From Folioceros fuciformis (taxonomy: Eukaryota): a DNA stretch of 20,000 nt. The notes beneath the pieces were generated by a model, which ran no database searches, was not told the origin of the DNA, and worked only from the letters and a program-made list of their open reading frames with translations. A program made the translations under genes and the position numbers. The DNA lies in NCBI GenBank assembly GCA_049999805.1, contig JBNGIO010006255.1, forward strand, positions 95,701 to 115,700, written 5' to 3'. The first letter of the stretch is position 1. Each line of letters begins with the position of its first letter. Positions 11,300 to 15,813 of the stretch are shown here, piece after piece.

Positions 11300-12207
11300 T
11301 CAGTCCATTCGTTCAACAGGAAGGTTCATCAATTCTCTAATTCCCTCCAAGACCTGTAAGAAAGGAACACGTCAGTTTAGCAACTGCTGAGGAATATCGC
11401 CAGGAAGTACCTAAATCATGCTGAACCGTAGAAAGAGCATACCAGCTTAATCTGGCCCTTTATGTTCCCTATCTGCTCCGTGCGTGCCTCAATCTGACTG
11501 GGCACAACAAAATTGCCGGTGTAAATAAACTGGAGTACAACTCAATGGCGTTCGACATCGTACCTTGGAAATGAACTGGAAGAAGGAAACCACCTCACCT
11601 GGAGAGGACCTTTTCCGTGACAGCTATGAACTGCAAGGCCTCTCTCAGGGTGAATTCCACATGGAAGCCAAGCCCAACGTCTACGAAAATACGTGATGTA
11701 TCTGGACTGCACACGATGAGGAGGCTTCCAGTCACACGAACCATTTCAAGTAGTTCACTATCTTCAGAATGGAAAAGCAGAGTTCTTCCTATCCCTGACT
11801 CCTTACACTTCAGCTTGGACATAAACCTCAGAGCCAAGATTGATCATAGTCCTGATGTTCTTTATCTTGTTTTGTTCCAGCACTTGGATGTTGTTTGCAA
11901 GATCAGAGCTGCAAGGCCGTGTCAAGCCACATGTTCAAAATGATATCCGCGAGGAGGGAGACCGGTGCAGTTGTGGATTTAGCGATCACTTACAAGACCC
12001 GCTGCTTCTCCAGCAATTTGTCCCTGAATGCATATGATGGGATATGAGAATTATGGCACCAGGTACTCCTGAACGCAGCTGGACACAGGACTCTAAAATT
12101 TTTCTAACTCACCTCTGGGCCACAGCGCGGACAAGATCAGGCTTCAGCCGTTTGTCCACAAATTGCTCATACTGCCGAACCTTGGAGGCTATGTTGACAC
12201 TCTCCAT
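11300..12207 (-). CDS. UXT: Prefoldin alpha-like protein UXT, 147 aa
   Basis: Exons 12207-12113, 12023-11994, 11908-11807, 11706-11599, 11497-11443 and 11353-11300. The protein reads KVRQYEQFVDKRLKPDL...TMINLGSEVYVQAEVPDTSRIFVDVGLGFHVEFT...IKGQIKLVLEGIRELM. Confidence 0.93.
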
Positions 12208-12232
12208 CGCAGCTGAAGGTAAGCTGAGTATC

Positions 12233-12590
12233 TAACCCTGAGCCTGAACCCGAGTTTGAGAAAGCTATTTCTCTGTGTACCTGCCTCCCTTGAGGTTTTT
12301 GAGAAGAAGCTGATGATTTAACCCTGGGGCTTAACCTGAGTTAGGCAAGCTAGGGCTTTGAGGACAGCCACCTTCGGGCTTTTCGGGAAGAAAGAGAATT
12401 CTAGTTCAGTCTAATTCTATCCGTCTTGGGACTCGGATGGTAGTCATAAGAAGAAGCGATTTAACCCTGGGGCTGAACTCGAGTCAGGCAAGCTAGGGCT
12501 TTATGGGCAGCCTCCTTAGGGCTTTTCAGGAAGAAGAAGAATTCTATTTCAGCCCAATCTTTTTCATCCTGGGATTGGGATTGGGCCATA
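12233..12590. repeat. Diverged tandem duplication (~145-bp unit, about 2.5 copies) forming the UXT/RPL29 bidirectional promoter
   Basis: Copies 12302-12448 and 12449-12590 share agaagaagc..ttaaccctggggct..gag..aggcaagctagggcttt..gggcttttc.ggaagaa..gaattcta. A more degenerate partial copy lies at 12233-12310. Site II motifs occur at 12551 (AGCCCA) and 12582 (TGGGCC). Confidence 0.85.
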
Positions 12591-12677
12591 CGAGTTATCG
12601 AGATATTCCAGCCTCATCGTCGCTCTCCCCGCAGCTCCGGTTTACGGCCAAGTTGCGGAGATAGGTTTTTGAGCGCC

Positions 12678-12869
12678 ATGGCCAAGTCGAAAAATCACAC
12701 GGCTCACAACCAGTCTTACAAGGCGCACAGGAATGGGATCAAGAAGCCAAAGAAGAACAAGTATATTTCGCGCAAGGGAATGGATCCCAAGTTCCTGCGC
12801 AACCAAAGATATGCGAAGAAGCACAATCGGGTTCCAGGTGCTGCTGCTGGGGACGATGTTGAAGAGTAG
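12678..12869 (+). CDS. RPL29: 60S ribosomal protein L29 (eL29), 63 aa, uninterrupted CDS
   Basis: [26 protein letters not shown]...[18 protein letters not shown] is the eL29 signature. Confidence 0.98.
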
Positions 12870-12970
12870 TCTCTGCATTCGACTCTGGTGAGCAGCTGCG
12901 TTCCTTCCTTGCTGAGGCCTATCGCTGGTGGCGTTTGTCACACGTGGGATTGGAAGTGCGGGACCTTGTT

Positions 12971-13101
12971 TGGCAACTTTGCCGAGGCCTCTGTCCTGGC
13001 TTTTTCCAGGTCATGGATGATGTCTCTTTTTCCCTGTTGCCAAGATGAGGAGGTCTCTCTCGGTCGTCTGCTCTGTGTGTGCAGACGGTTGGAAGATATC
13101 C
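12971..13101 (+). ncRNA. Box H/ACA snoRNA (AUA tail variant), predicted guide for pseudouridylation of the 25S rRNA U in AGGGAAG-U-CGGCAAA
   Basis: Lower stem tggcaac (12971-77) pairs with gttgcca (13036-42). Pocket strands tttgcc (12978-83) and tttccct (13029-35) pair with 25S GGCAAA and AGGGAAG around an unpaired UC. H box AGATGA (13043-48) is 14 nt from the pocket top. A second hairpin spans 13057-13095, followed by ATA plus 3 nt. The rRNA sequence is recalled from the conserved plant LSU. Confidence 0.7.
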
Positions 13102-13337
13102 GGATTCGACCCCTGATGTCTGGGACCAAAATTATTTACTCCCTAGTGTGCTTTGTTGTGGTTTGCGGGCTGCACGTTTGCTGGTTAGAATTTTGTAGAT
13201 TTGTGCGTGACGACGTAATTTCAAATGTAAGGATGAATTTGAAGGACTGTGATTGATTTTCGTTTGTCTGCCTCCAAGTGCTGTGGTCTACCCTGGTTCT
13301 CTTGTGTCTGTTTGTGCCTTAGTATGCTGTCGGTCGA

Positions 13338-13416
13338 GCACGATGAGGACATCTGAACTGTATGGTTGAGAGTTAAGCTCGTTGATGTAACCATACCTCC
13401 TACTCATTCTGAGTGC
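13338..13416 (+). ncRNA. Box C/D snoRNA, predicted guide for 2'-O-methylation of the 25S rRNA A in AUG-A-GUAGGAGG
   Basis: Terminal stem gcac/gtgc. Box C is ACGATGA (13340-46). Box D' TTGA (13366-69) is followed by a gagt/gctc stem, a 3-nt bulge and the C' GATG. Box D is CTGA (13409-12). The 12-nt guide CCTCCTACTCAT (13396-407) is complementary to plant 25S ATGAGTAGGAGG. Confidence 0.82.
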
Positions 13417-13766
13417 ACGTCTTTTTATGGTGATATTAGGTCTAAACGTGTGGGCCTTACCGTTCAGACTTGCTCGCGTTGTGTGCTTATTTTGTTGATG
13501 GTGCCTGCAGGAACTAGGCGGGCGAAAGGTCTTCTTGGGATGTTGCGGCCATGGTGATTTTTAGTTTGACTTTGTGTCTGCTCCTCGCAGTTGGTGAGGA
13601 AACATGCTATTTTGGCGGTTTTGTCGGAGGCTCTCTAGTGTACAATCGGCAACAGTAATTTGTGCCTGATTGGTTTTTCCTGGCTACCCTTATCTACACA
13701 TTTGAATTCAATTGGATCCTCCGTTTCAAAGGTTCGCGTAAGAGGGACATACACCTCACTGGAATA

Positions 13767-15813
13767 TCACGGAGAAGTACCAGTAACTGTTCGGTGTCTT
13801 GGATCTGTCAACCGGGATTGAACATTTGTGAAACCAAGGTCTTGCATCGCTCTTGCCAGATCCAACTGGTAATACTCATCTGTCCACGGTTCTGTTGACT
13901 TCATGAGCGTGAAGAGAACTGGTGGCAACTCCTGCGCAGAAAACCATCGAGCTGGTTACTACACGTTTAACAGATAGCCTACTTCTTTCTATTACTGCAG
14001 CGTAAATGCAAAAAGCTTGAAACAGAAGCAGATCGAAATCTCAAACAACCTGTATGATCTTGGATTTGGGCTGGAAAACAAGACACAGAAACACAGCCGT
14101 GAGTGACATAGATCCAAAAGTTTCAAAGTAGATGCAGAAAAGGTTGAGCAGCTCTAGGGGGTTTGAGACTACTGAGGTCAGTGAGCCGAACGTACATCGA
14201 CCTCCGTTATTGCAACGGTGCCACCAGGTTTCAAAAGCCTTCGGGCTTCTGCAAGCAAATCTCGAGTTGCCGCAACAGGGCACTCATGGATCTGACTCGC
14301 ACATGCAAAACAGGAGCCCAGAATTAGGAACGCGCGGTCTTCACTGCACTTGTAAGATGCAGACTGTACGGGGACCTTTGCCCTTGTCACATACCACATA
14401 GGCGAAGGACACGATGTCGAAGCTGTCTGACGGAAGGCCTGTGCTTTCCCCTCTTGCATGTATCCATCGGATGGGCTGTTTCCTCGGCTCCTCCTTTGCA
14501 GCCTCTTGTTTGTCCAGGTACTGTGCAACAGCAACGAAATATGGGGACAGATCCACTCCCTGCCACAACAAGCCTTGTGTGAACTAGGACTCCTGTTTTG
14601 TTGCAGTGTGGCCAATATACAGAGCAGCATCAGCACACACCCCCCGAGCTTACTGTAACATGAGCAGAGGGAAACTTGTCAGCCAGGTATCTTGTCGAGC
14701 TGCCTGTGCCGCACCCGATGTCAAGGATTGAGGAAACTGCCCCTCCCGAGTACTGCACATGGTGATTGTATATGGTCTTGTACCAGCCTCCCCTGAGGAC
14801 GTCAATGGCCTCCTCCACCGTCTTGGCTGTCTTAATTGCCCGAACCATCATGCACAGGGTTGCTGGTTCCACCTCAGAGGCTGCCTGCAACCACAACCAT
14901 CCAGTAACTGGCCCCGTCATCCATCAGAGAAGGGTTGATGATTTCATGGGCTCCTGCCACTCACTCGTATGCATCCGTTGGTGACCCATCTCGGGAAAGC
15001 ACATGAAGGAACTGCCACACAGAAGTATAATATTGCCTGCTGAGTGTACCAGCCAGGAGAGATTGCCCTCGCCGTATGCATGAAACTCCTTCAAGTAGTC
15101 TGAAGAAACCACGCACGCAAAAGGACCTCAAAACATGTCTCAACACAAGCAACGGACTTGATGATAACAGAAGGGAAGATGAGCTTACAGTCAGGATACA
15201 CGAGGTTCTTGTTCTCAAGCCGTTCCTTCTCTTCGTGAACCTCCTTGGCCGACAATATGTCTGCAGACATTTTCTGCCAAGGAATGCCTCGCTGCTCCGC
15301 GGTGCTGCACCCATGCGCAACCAAGGAGCAGCCATTCAGCAAATTTCATTAGGAGAAACAAGAGCACACATCGATCGCCTTCTAGCACACGTCCAGGGCA
15401 GGCAAAGGATACGACCCGTCTTCCAGAATGAGCCTGAACCTGATAAGCACAAGTCGAGCCATGGGCTTCAGGAGGCTGAAGAGAGGCTTGAAGGAGATGA
15501 GGCCACTGACTATCTTCGAAAGAGGATCATCCCCAGCCCACCTCGGATGATCCAGCTCCCCGTACGCGTACTCCGGAAGCTCGTAGAGCTGCTCTCCCGA
15601 TGCTGTGCCGGCACTGGCACTTGATGCTACGCTGGTGCTGGCCACTTGCATTCGCGCAGCCACCGCATTTTGGCCATGCCTGCTTCCCAAGGTCCTAGGT
15701 CCCACCAGTCTCCTTCCCTGCACTGCGGATGAGGGAGAACCGTGGATGCTGGAAACTCTAGGGGATGGAACTCGAGCCCGGATGATGGAGCAGTTCCCCA
15801 CGACTGCTGCCAT
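13767..15813 (-). CDS. Class I SAM-dependent methyltransferase (type 11/25-like, cyanobacterial-type family), probably chloroplastic, 405 aa
   Basis: Exons 15813-15440, 15304-15189, 15099-15050, 14884-14654, 14559-14395, 14291-14196, 14070-14050 and 13931-13767. Motifs: YPDYYLKEFHAYGEGNLSW, ILDIGCGTGSST, GVDLSPYF, HECP, RLLKPGG and TLMKSTEPW. The N-terminus is a Ser/Arg-rich transit peptide. Confidence 0.92.

What the first reader, a model, noticed from the sequence alone, without database searches (positions are those of the whole stretch)
12971..13101. H/ACA snoRNA with a complete pseudouridylation pocket for 25S rRNA GGGAAG-U-CGGC
Seen: 7-bp lower stem, bipartite pocket, H box ANANNA at the canonical 14-nt distance, and a pocket-less second hairpin with a GU-repeat loop ending in AUA rather than ACA. 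Known from memory: plant LSU rRNA contains GGCAAGGGAAGTCGGCAAAATGG. The pocket pairs 7+6 bp (one G-U) and leaves U-C unpaired. I cannot assign this RNA to a named family, so both the guide and the modified site may be undescribed.
Basis: partly seen in the sequence, partly recalled or inferred. Interest (0 to 1): 0.75.

Follow-up and report, generated by a model that had tools for sequence, protein, structure and literature searches.

The report
Intronic snoR144-like H/ACA snoRNA
This is most likely an ordinary pseudouridine-guide RNA (box H/ACA snoRNA) sitting in an intron of a ribosomal-protein gene, and its guide is the one already described for the plant snoRNA snoR144, so it is a divergent relative of a known RNA and not a new one.

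Summary
Window 12971-13101 (+) folds as hairpin-hinge-hairpin. It has a 7-bp lower stem, a 6+9-nt pocket, H box AGAUGA, a pocket-less second hairpin and AUA in place of ACA.

The pocket's best rRNA match is the U of GGGAAG-U-C-GGCAAA in eukaryotic LSU rRNA: 7+6 bp with one G-U, and 11 of 500 shuffled guides score as well.

The guide is not undescribed.
- Rfam snoR144 (RF02412) aligns weakly, at 18.9 bits against a gathering score of 100, but exactly over the lower stem, both pocket strands and the H box.
- A bona fide snoR144 (L001, 174 bits) and tandem arrays of snoR144-like genes (L003-L005) carry the same stem and pocket with unrelated upper stems.
- Chen & Wu 2009 predicted Psi1897/25S for this pocket of Arabidopsis snoR144.

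New context: an RNA contig splices 12888-13510 out of the eL29 transcript, while the DNA is contiguous. The RNA therefore lies in a 3'-UTR intron of the eL29 gene, together with a C/D snoRNA at 13335-13419.

Still open: accumulation of the RNA, its 3' end, the species' own 25S sequence, and pseudouridine at the site.

The parts
12678..12869 (+). Coding sequence of ribosomal protein eL29 (63 aa, stop TAG at 12867-12869); the host gene
   Evidence: Pfam PF01779 Ribosomal_L29e, 84.4 bits against a cut-off of 27. It is covered by RNA contig record 5 of run X3.
12888..13510 (+). 3'-UTR intron of the eL29 gene (623 nt, GTGAGC...CAG). It holds both snoRNAs.
   Evidence: table 5: X3 contig record 5 (3308 nt, depth 122.9) joins 12886 to 13510, skipping 623 nt with GT..AG ends (cut +1). 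DNA run X1 record 1 runs through 12200-13598 without a gap.
12971..13101 (+). Candidate box H/ACA snoRNA, snoR144-like (131 nt if it ends 3 nt after AUA)
   Evidence: Fold. Rfam snoR144 18.9 bits at 12970-13074. Model R1, built without the window, scores 47.1 bits at 12970-13050.
12971..12977 (+). Lower stem, 5' strand (UGGCAAC)
   Evidence: Pairs with 13036-13042. GGCAAC is invariant in 12 of 12 aligned sequences.
12978..12983 (+). Pocket 5' strand UUUGCC; pairs with rRNA GGCAAA on the 3' side of the target U-C
   Evidence: 6 bp. Invariant in 12 of 12 sequences.
12984..13026 (+). Upper stem-loop. Its base GAG/CUC is conserved; the rest is lineage-specific.
   Evidence: GAG/CUC pairs are kept in 12 of 12 sequences. 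The apical part cannot be aligned between the window, L001 and the L003-L005 group.
13027..13035 (+). Pocket 3' strand UUUUUCCCU. Positions 13029-13035 pair with rRNA A-GGGAAG; 13027-13028 stay unpaired.
   Evidence: 7 bp including one G-U, with an offset of 2. UUUUUCCC is invariant apart from one copy, L005a.
13036..13042 (+). Lower stem, 3' strand (GUUGCCA)
13043..13048 (+). H box AGAUGA (ANANNA)
   Evidence: The A positions of the box are invariant in alignment A1 (A74, A76, A79).
13049..13095 (+). Second hairpin: 17 bp with two 1-nt bulges and a UCUGUGUGU loop, no pocket. It is not alignable to the 3' hairpins of the homologues.
   Evidence: z -3.19. Alignment A1 shows no similarity.
13096..13098 (+). 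AUA, the putative ACA-box variant. The predicted 3' end is at 13101.
   Evidence: AUA, AAA and AGA are named as alternative ACA boxes in the review PMC7991803 (passage). The real 3' end was not mapped.
13335..13419 (+). Box C/D snoRNA in the same intron: C box about 13340-13346, D' at 13353-13356, D at 13409-13412, terminal stem GCAC/GUGC
   Evidence: Rfam snoZ105 33.5 bits and snoZ162 25.4 bits, both below the gathering score of 45. The guide upstream of box D is an exact 12-nt complement of LSU 1377-1388 of L027.

Best explanation
Window 12971-13101 (+) is an intron-encoded box H/ACA snoRNA gene. Its 5' guide domain is homologous to that of plant snoR144.

Proposed mechanism:
1. It is transcribed as part of the eL29 pre-mRNA, inside the 3'-UTR intron 12888-13510 (shown).
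2. It is released by splicing or by endonucleolytic cuts and then trimmed by exonucleases (inferred from what is established for intronic and clustered snoRNAs).
3. It is protected by the Cbf5/Nhp2/Nop10/Gar1 proteins bound to the two hairpins, the H box and the AUA box (inferred).
4. Its 5' pocket pairs with 25S rRNA on both sides of the U in GGGAAG-U-C-GGCAAA, at the start of domain IV, and presents that U to Cbf5 for conversion to pseudouridine (pairing shown in silico, catalysis inferred).

The 3' hairpin has no pocket and probably serves only for RNP assembly and stability. A box C/D snoRNA at 13335-13419 is made from the same intron.
For: 1. Architecture: all H/ACA elements are present. 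Hairpin 2 and the whole RNA fold better than shuffles (z -3.19 and -2.79), while the flanking intron does not (z +1.2 and +1.8).

2. Independent model: Rfam RF02412 snoR144 aligns at 12970-13074, matching the lower stem, both pocket strands and the H box (18.9 bits, E 0.7 in a 901-nt search).

3. Homologues: a 23-base pattern found 5 metagenome loci.
- L001 is a true snoR144 (174.4 bits, above the gathering score of 100).
- L003-L005 carry arrays of snoR144-like genes (7 matches, 28.3-35.6 bits), each with a 3' hairpin and an ACA or GCA box.
- In the 12-sequence alignment, GGCAAC/GUUGCC, UUUGCC, UUUUUCCC (one copy differs), GAG/CUC and the A's of the H box are invariant. The upper stem is unrelated in the three lineages yet still pairs.

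4. Model R1, built from the 11 homologues without the window, scores 47.1 bits (E 1.6e-9). The next best match in the 20 kb scores 9.6 bits.

5. Target: for the pockets of the window, L001 and L003c, the best site in SSU, 5.8S and LSU is the same U (score 12.5; the next best is 9.5). 11 of 500 shuffled guides reach that score.

6. Context: the sense strand of an intron of a ribosomal-protein gene, beside a C/D snoRNA with a 12-nt rRNA complement.

7. Literature:
- AUA is an accepted ACA variant (review PMC7991803, passage).
- A box-to-target distance of 15 +/- 1 is typical (PMC7075261, passage). Here it is 14 or 16, depending on how it is counted.
- Chen & Wu predicted Psi1897/25S for pocket 1 of snoR144.
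Against: - No ACA box. The 3' hairpin does not align with any homologue and has no pocket.
- The Rfam score is far below gathering, and the hit is not listed in the whole-window search at E up to 1.
- The R1 score is partly circular. The homologues were fished with a pattern taken from the window and the Rfam consensus, so 23 of the 68 model positions match by construction.
- There are only three lineages. L003 and L005 look like two versions of one array, and the model's effective sequence number is 2.41.
- No pair in the conserved stems shows a true compensatory change. They are invariant, which says nothing about structure.
- The guide leaves two U's unpaired next to the upper stem.
- The guide match alone is only moderately unusual (11 of 500 shuffles).
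- The MFE fold is a minority of the ensemble, and the centroid loses the lower stem.
- Not examined: the species' own 25S rRNA; the ends or abundance of a ~131-nt RNA; pseudouridine at the site.
- I could not confirm that Arabidopsis U1897 is this U. In record L027 it is LSU position 1911, and my attempt to calibrate the numbering through pocket 2 failed.
Confidence: 0.7

Rival explanations
1. It is a decaying or disabled copy of a snoR144-like gene. The 5' guide hairpin is still intact, but the 3' hairpin and ACA box have been lost, so no stable RNP forms and the sequence is degraded with the intron. The real guide for this site would then lie elsewhere in the genome.
For: - No ACA in the 290 nt after the H box.
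- The 3' hairpin is unalignable, short (about 47 nt) and has no pocket.
- 3 of the 10 array copies in L003-L005 also carry GCA for ACA, so defective copies occur in this family.
- A passage in PMC7075261, citing Bortolin et al. 1999, says both stem-loops are needed in vivo in eukaryotes.
Against: - All 15 pocket bases, the 7-bp stem, GAG/CUC and the H box are unchanged, while the upper stem has diverged beyond alignment. That pattern is expected under continued selection.
- The 3' hairpin is a strong, non-random structure (z -3.19) followed at the right place by an accepted box variant, AUA + 3 nt.
- No second copy of the H/ACA hairpin was laid from the DNA contigs of run X1 at 80% likeness, although a paralogue of the C/D guide was. 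Contigs cannot prove absence.
Confidence: 0.2
2. It is a chance intronic hairpin with an accidental rRNA complement. No RNA gene is present.
For: - The guide-target match alone is reached by 11 of 500 shuffled guides.
- Rfam finds nothing at gathering thresholds.
- The minus strand folds equally well.
Against: - The same stem, pocket and H box occur in a bona fide snoR144 and in arrays of H/ACA genes.
- R1 scores 47.1 bits here and at most 9.6 bits elsewhere in the window.
- The pattern is expected 0.00 times in 200 shuffles of the window. The pattern was derived from this site, so this shows only that it is specific.
- The neighbouring C/D snoRNA and the ribosomal-protein host intron fit a snoRNA locus.
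Confidence: 0.03
3. It is a structured cis-element of the eL29 3'-UTR intron that regulates splicing or host mRNA level, not a trans-acting guide.
For: - It lies 83 nt from the 5' splice site of an intron that starts 18 nt after the stop codon.
- X3 contig record 8 (229 nt, depth 9.2) shows some intronic RNA at 13009-13237.
Against: - The homologues in L001 and L003-L005 are not next to an eL29 gene: tblastn gave no hit better than E 0.23, and that one is in L002. The conserved part therefore travels independently of this host.
- What is conserved is exactly the guide and the protein-binding boxes.
Confidence: 0.05

Closest known systems
Arabidopsis snoR144 (Rfam RF02412; Chen & Wu 2009, PMC2685112, Table 3 read); represented here by L001:7514-7657 (174.4 bits)
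   Same: - Box H/ACA architecture.
- Identical lower stem GGCAAC/GUUGCC.
- Same pocket strands: UUU(UU)GCC and UUUUUCCC.
- Same GAG/CUC base of the upper stem.
- H box one nucleotide after the stem.
- Same best rRNA target U.
   Different: - The window's 5' pocket strand is 2 nt shorter.
- Its upper stem is about twice as long and unrelated in sequence.
- Its 3' hairpin is unrelated and lacks the second pocket, for which Chen & Wu predicted Psi1255/25S.
- It has AUA where snoR144 has ACA.
- It is intronic in an eL29 gene, whereas snoR144 is listed as 'IGR, cluster' in Arabidopsis.
- Its Rfam score is 18.9 against a gathering score of 100.
snoR144-like tandem arrays in metagenome contigs L003, L004 and L005 (unnamed organism)
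   Same: Identical GGCAACUUUGCCGAGG start and CUCUUUUUCCCUGUUGCC end of the 5' hairpin, including the 6-nt 5' pocket strand. The H box is at the same place.
   Different: - They are arranged as head-to-tail arrays with a period of about 215-230 nt, not as a single intronic copy.
- They have a shorter upper stem.
- They have 3' hairpins of about 65 nt ending in ACA (7 of 10 copies) or GCA (3 of 10).
- No eL29 gene lies nearby.
Intron-encoded snoRNAs and intronic snoRNA clusters of ribosomal-protein and other host genes (animals; rice; Chlamydomonas). Recalled from general knowledge; no paper was read here.
   Same: Sense-strand location in an intron of a translation-related host gene. More than one snoRNA, of both classes, lies in one intron.
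   Different: Here the intron is in the 3' UTR, 18 nt after the stop codon. I did not check how common that is.

Membership tests
Box H/ACA snoRNA (class) | Hairpin-hinge-hairpin-tail secondary structure | tested here: met
   The MFE fold of 12971-13101 gives two hairpins separated by a single-stranded hinge. The same 5' hairpin is predicted for 5 of 5 homologues folded. Caveat: for the window the centroid differs from the MFE.
Box H/ACA snoRNA (class) | H box ANANNA in the hinge, directly after the 5' hairpin | tested here: met
   AGAUGA at 13043-13048, immediately after the lower stem. The A positions are invariant in alignment A1.
Box H/ACA snoRNA (class) | ACA box three nucleotides from the 3' end | tested here: inconclusive
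   There is no ACA. AUA at 13096-13098 follows the 3' hairpin. AUA is listed as an alternative box in the review PMC7991803. [quoted passage not shown]
Box H/ACA snoRNA (class) | Pocket with bipartite complementarity to a target RNA that leaves U-N unpaired, about 14-16 nt from the box | tested here: met
   7 bp (one G-U) plus 6 bp around U-C of LSU rRNA (record L027, position 1911). This is the best of all sites scanned, and 11 of 500 shuffles score as well. The distance is 14 nt from the pairing guide base, or 16 nt from the upper stem. Two guide U's are unpaired. The organism's own rRNA was not seen.
Box H/ACA snoRNA (class) | Stable accumulation and binding by Cbf5/Nhp2/Nop10/Gar1 | not testable with these tools
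   Only assembled contigs of one probable RNA run were available. They show the spliced host mRNA and a 229-nt intronic contig at 13009-13237.
Rfam RF02412 snoR144 | Score at or above the family's gathering threshold (100 bits) | tested here: not met
   18.9 bits, E 0.7. There are no matches at gathering thresholds in the whole window.
Rfam RF02412 snoR144 | 5' hairpin with the family's lower stem and pocket-1 guide | tested here: met
   The cmscan alignment and alignment A1 show an identical stem and pocket strands. R1, built without the window, scores 47.1 bits (partly circular).
Rfam RF02412 snoR144 | 3' hairpin with second pocket and ACA box | tested here: not met
   The cmscan alignment collapses the 3' hairpin: 67 model positions are replaced by 12 nt. 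MAFFT finds no similarity. The fold shows no internal loop.
Intron-encoded snoRNA | Lies within an intron, on the sense strand of the host gene | tested here: met
   Joint 12886->13510 with GT..AG ends on the + strand in RNA contig X3 record 5. The DNA contig X1 record 1 is uninterrupted. The host is eL29.

The most novel reading that the evidence does not exclude
Only the 5' guide domain of snoR144 is ancient. It has been kept base for base in three lineages whose upper stems share nothing, while the 3' domain is free to be replaced. In this organism the replacement is a pocket-less hairpin with an AUA box, and the gene has moved into a 3'-UTR intron of eL29. On this reading, the pseudouridine predicted at the GGGAAG-U-CGGC site is a widely conserved plant-lineage modification that has so far rested on a single Arabidopsis prediction. 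I found no yeast or human equivalent listed for it, and no experimental mapping in the text I could read.
Probability: 0.35. Interest if true: 0.35.

Novelty: new member of a known kind. Interest (0 to 1): 0.25.

Why it matters
The practical value is annotation. Rfam's snoR144 model has a gathering score of 100 bits and misses this gene and the arrays in L003-L005, so relatives of this guide outside the model's narrow seed go unannotated.

It also gives a concrete, testable prediction for this organism: one pseudouridine at the start of 25S domain IV, with its guide made from the eL29 pre-mRNA. That arrangement couples a ribosome-modifying RNA to the expression of a ribosomal-protein gene.

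The strict conservation of the guide beside an entirely diverged upper stem and 3' hairpin illustrates which parts of an H/ACA RNA are under selection.

None of this changes what is known about how H/ACA snoRNAs work.

Tried and rejected
- **Rfam at gathering thresholds, whole window:** 0 matches. At E up to 1 there were 3 matches, none of them the H/ACA.
- **Whole genome of the window:** not held. The organism's own rRNA and possible paralogues could not be searched.
- **The genome search on L001:** I then obtained eukaryotic rDNA from contaminant contigs in prokaryote assemblies.
- **Calibrating Arabidopsis numbering (1897 against 1911 in L027):** I tried to reproduce the Psi1255 prediction for pocket 2 of L001.
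  - My strict scan put the best pocket-2 site at LSU 367.
  - A relaxed scan around 1240-1290 gave nothing distinctive.
  - The equivalence of U1897 with this U therefore remains inferred.
- **Sequencing runs:** no RNA holder is listed as such. X3 is 'RNA?' by guess and behaves as RNA, since it has a spliced joint.
  - Parts of the intron without X3 cover (12932-12992, 13298-13358) say nothing.
  - X5 and X6, from other organisms, matched only the eL29 coding sequence, so they give no comparative data for the snoRNA.
- **Longer 3' domain:** looked for downstream of 13101. The fold of 13043-13260 is not better than shuffles (z -0.76), and the spacers have z above +1.
- **Synteny:** no eL29 gene next to the homologues.
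- **L002:** judged a chance pattern match (60% GC, no R1 match). It was left out of the Rfam search and out of all alignments.
- **Literature on the site:**
  - The search '1897' + Arabidopsis + 25S + pseudouridine returned only reference-list hits besides Chen & Wu.
  - In Streit & Schleiff 2021 (PMC8351944) I read passages and section 9 part 2. The site and snoR144 are not mentioned in that text. Their Supplementary Table 2 and the Sun et al. 2019 data, which I could not see, may say whether it has been mapped.
  - The HydraPsiSeq search gave two reviews only.
  - The term 'snoR144' occurs in 1 paper of the library.
- **Earlier findings of this scan:** nothing by place, by sequence or by words.

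Full report
**1. What is in the sequence**

ViennaRNA's minimum-energy fold gives these elements:
- a 7-bp lower stem, 12971-12977 with 13036-13042;
- an internal loop with strands UUUGCC (12978-12983) and UUUUUCCCU (13027-13035);
- an upper stem-loop, 12984-13026;
- a single-stranded AGAUGA at 13043-13048;
- a second hairpin without an internal loop, 13049-13101, whose loop is UCUGUGUGU and which is followed by AUA (13096-13098) plus three bases.

The fold energy is -48.2 kcal/mol with z -2.79, and 1 of 200 shuffles folds as well. The second hairpin alone has z -3.19. The intron sequence after it is less structured than shuffles (z +1.20 for 13102-13240, +1.80 for 13200-13334). A longer 3' domain is not supported (13043-13260, z -0.76).

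Two points go against relying on energy alone:
- The MFE structure makes up only 0.057 of the ensemble, and the centroid loses the lower stem.
- The reverse strand folds as well (z -3.78).

**2. Rfam**

At gathering thresholds nothing in the 20-kb window matches any of 4227 families. A permissive search of 12600-13500 lists 9 matches up to E 10. Two matter.
- **RF02412 snoR144**, a plant H/ACA family, at 12970-13074. It scores 18.9 bits (gathering 100, E 0.7). The printed alignment puts the family's lower stem, both pocket strands and H box exactly on those of the window, while the 3' hairpin collapses.
- **RF00145 snoZ105** (33.5 bits) and **RF00329 snoZ162** (25.4 bits) at 13334-13419. Both are plant C/D families with a gathering score of 45.

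In the whole-window permissive search, only the C/D matches and one unrelated match stay under E 1.

**3. Homologues**

I wrote a pattern from the letters shared by the window and the Rfam consensus and scanned the metagenome contigs. It found 5 loci with 10 matches.
- **L001:7514-7657** is a bona fide snoR144 (174.4 bits).
- **L003, L004 and L005**, all from one metagenome, hold head-to-tail arrays of snoR144-like genes. There are seven further Rfam matches at 28.3-35.6 bits, and model R1 finds 10 full copies plus one cut by a contig end. The copies in L003 pair off with those in L005, so these two are probably two versions of one array.
- **L002** is a GC-rich contig without the 5' stem strand and without an R1 match. 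I treat it as a chance hit and left it out.

In the 12-sequence alignment, the following are invariant or differ in one copy only:
- GGCAAC and GUUGCC;
- UUUGCC;
- UUUUUCCC;
- the GAG/CUC base of the upper stem;
- the three A's of the H box.

The rest of the upper stem is unrelated among the window, L001 and the array group, yet it pairs in each. The conserved pairs never vary, so they give no covariation evidence. The argument rests on selective conservation of the guide, not on compensatory change.

A covariance model built from the 11 homologues without the window (R1) finds the window's 12970-13050 at 47.1 bits, E about 1.6e-9. The next best match in the 20 kb scores 9.6 bits. This figure is partly circular, because the homologues were selected with a pattern that the window matches by construction. 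The Rfam hit and L001's Rfam score are the independent anchors.

**4. Target**

No genome is held for the window.
- By eye, 33 of the 41 loci have LSU-like flanks, and 8 are chance occurrences in unrelated DNA.
- Two were checked with Rfam. L027 holds SSU (666-2473), 5.8S (2731-2886) and LSU from 3101 (2060 bits). L023 holds LSU.

A simple bipartite scan (helices read outward from the pocket, G-U allowed, up to 2 unpaired guide bases at the apex) was run over SSU, 5.8S, LSU 1-2258 of L027 and the 3' parts of three other LSUs.
- For the pockets of the window, L001 and L003c, the same best site comes out: the U at LSU 1911 of L027, in GCAAGGGAAG-UC-GGCAAAAUGG.
- The window pairs 7 bp (one G-U) plus 6 bp, score 12.5. 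The next best site scores 9.5.
- 11 of 500 shuffled guides reach 12.5.
- The two guide U's next to the upper stem stay unpaired in every family member.
- The H box is 14 nt from the pairing guide base, or 16 nt from the upper stem. A passage of PMC7075261 gives 15 +/- 1 as typical.

Chen & Wu 2009 (PMC2685112, Table 3) list the following for Arabidopsis snoR144: 144 nt, 'IGR, cluster', Psi1897/25S for pocket 1 and Psi1255/25S for pocket 2. They list no yeast or human equivalent, and snoR144 is not among their northern-tested RNAs.

I could not fetch Arabidopsis 25S, and my attempts to calibrate the numbering through pocket 2 failed. That U1897 is this U is therefore inferred from L001's pocket having this site as its best match.

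**5. Genomic context**

- The ORF 12678-12869 is ribosomal protein eL29 (Pfam PF01779, 84.4 bits).
- I laid the contigs of four runs on 12200-14000. Run X3 is a probable RNA run of the same organism. Its contig record 5 (3308 nt, depth 122.9) covers 12588-12886 and then continues at 13510. The joint skips 623 nt with GT..AG ends on the + strand.
- The DNA run X1 is uninterrupted across the same region.
- So 12888-13510 is an intron that begins 18 nt after the stop codon. Both the H/ACA candidate (83 nt from the 5' splice site) and the C/D snoRNA (about 91 nt from the 3' splice site) lie inside it, on the sense strand.
- A 229-nt X3 contig of low depth (13009-13237) shows some intronic RNA but cannot show ends.
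- X5 and X6, from other organisms, match only the coding sequence.

**6. The 3' half**

There is no ACA in the 290 nt after the H box. The only candidate box is AUA at 13096-13098, directly after the hairpin. A review (PMC7991803, passage read, citing Ganot et al. 1997) states that AUA, AAA or AGA can replace ACA.

The hairpin has no pocket and no similarity to the homologues' 3' hairpins. Among the 10 array copies, the 3' hairpins also vary, and 3 carry GCA for ACA.

The functional state of this 3' half is the main uncertainty. It is the basis of the relic rival, to which I give 0.2.

**7. Verdict**

The interpretation as an H/ACA guide for that 25S site is supported by homology, target match and context. 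The suggestion that the guide and site are undescribed is not supported: this is a divergent, intronic relative of snoR144 with the same pocket 1.

By Rfam's own threshold it is not a member of RF02412, and its 3' domain differs. I therefore file it as a new member of the H/ACA kind that works like snoR144 pocket 1. Interest is low to moderate.

Noticed in passing
window 13335-13419 (+): A box C/D snoRNA lies in the same intron. It matches Rfam snoZ105 (33.5 bits) and snoZ162 (25.4 bits), both below the gathering score of 45. It has a GCAC/GUGC terminal stem and a D box at 13409-13412. The guide upstream of box D is an exact 12-nt complement of LSU 1377-1388 in record L027, which by the fifth-nucleotide rule predicts 2'-O-methylation of the A at 1380 of that record.
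   Followed up: partly
window 13376-13416, runs X1 and X3: A 346-nt contig, present in both the DNA run and the probable RNA run, matches the C/D guide region twice with 1-3 mismatches. A paralogous locus with two copies of this C/D snoRNA therefore exists elsewhere in the genome (table 8).
   Followed up: no
window 12315-12581: A tandem repeat of period 143, 1.9 copies, 81% matches, lies just upstream of where the eL29 RNA contig starts (12588). It is possibly promoter or 5'-UTR sequence.
   Followed up: no
window 13511-14200: The same RNA contig that carries eL29 exon 2 runs on into exons of a minus-strand gene. The next joint, 13932-14049, reads CT..AC on the + strand (my reading of the loose end). 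Minus-strand ORFs at 14630-14923 carry a SAM-methyltransferase motif (Pfam Methyltransf_25, 25.5 bits, below its cut-off of 27). The two convergent genes seem to overlap at their 3' ends.
   Followed up: partly
window 12867-12888: The eL29 stop codon lies only 18 nt upstream of the 3'-UTR intron, so the whole snoRNA-bearing intron is non-coding.
   Followed up: no
L003:535-1337 (-), L005:1435-2416 (+), L004:1370-1604 (+): These are head-to-tail arrays of snoR144-like H/ACA genes with a period of about 215-230 nt. 3 of 10 copies have GCA instead of ACA, and the H boxes vary (AUAUCA, ACAUCA, AUAGCA, AUAGUA). All score below Rfam's gathering threshold for snoR144.
   Followed up: partly
L006-L046 (genome contigs): By eye, about 33 of the 41 prokaryote-assembly contigs returned for an 18-base eukaryotic LSU motif carry eukaryotic rDNA. 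That points to contamination of those assemblies. L027 holds a full SSU-5.8S-LSU unit.
   Followed up: no
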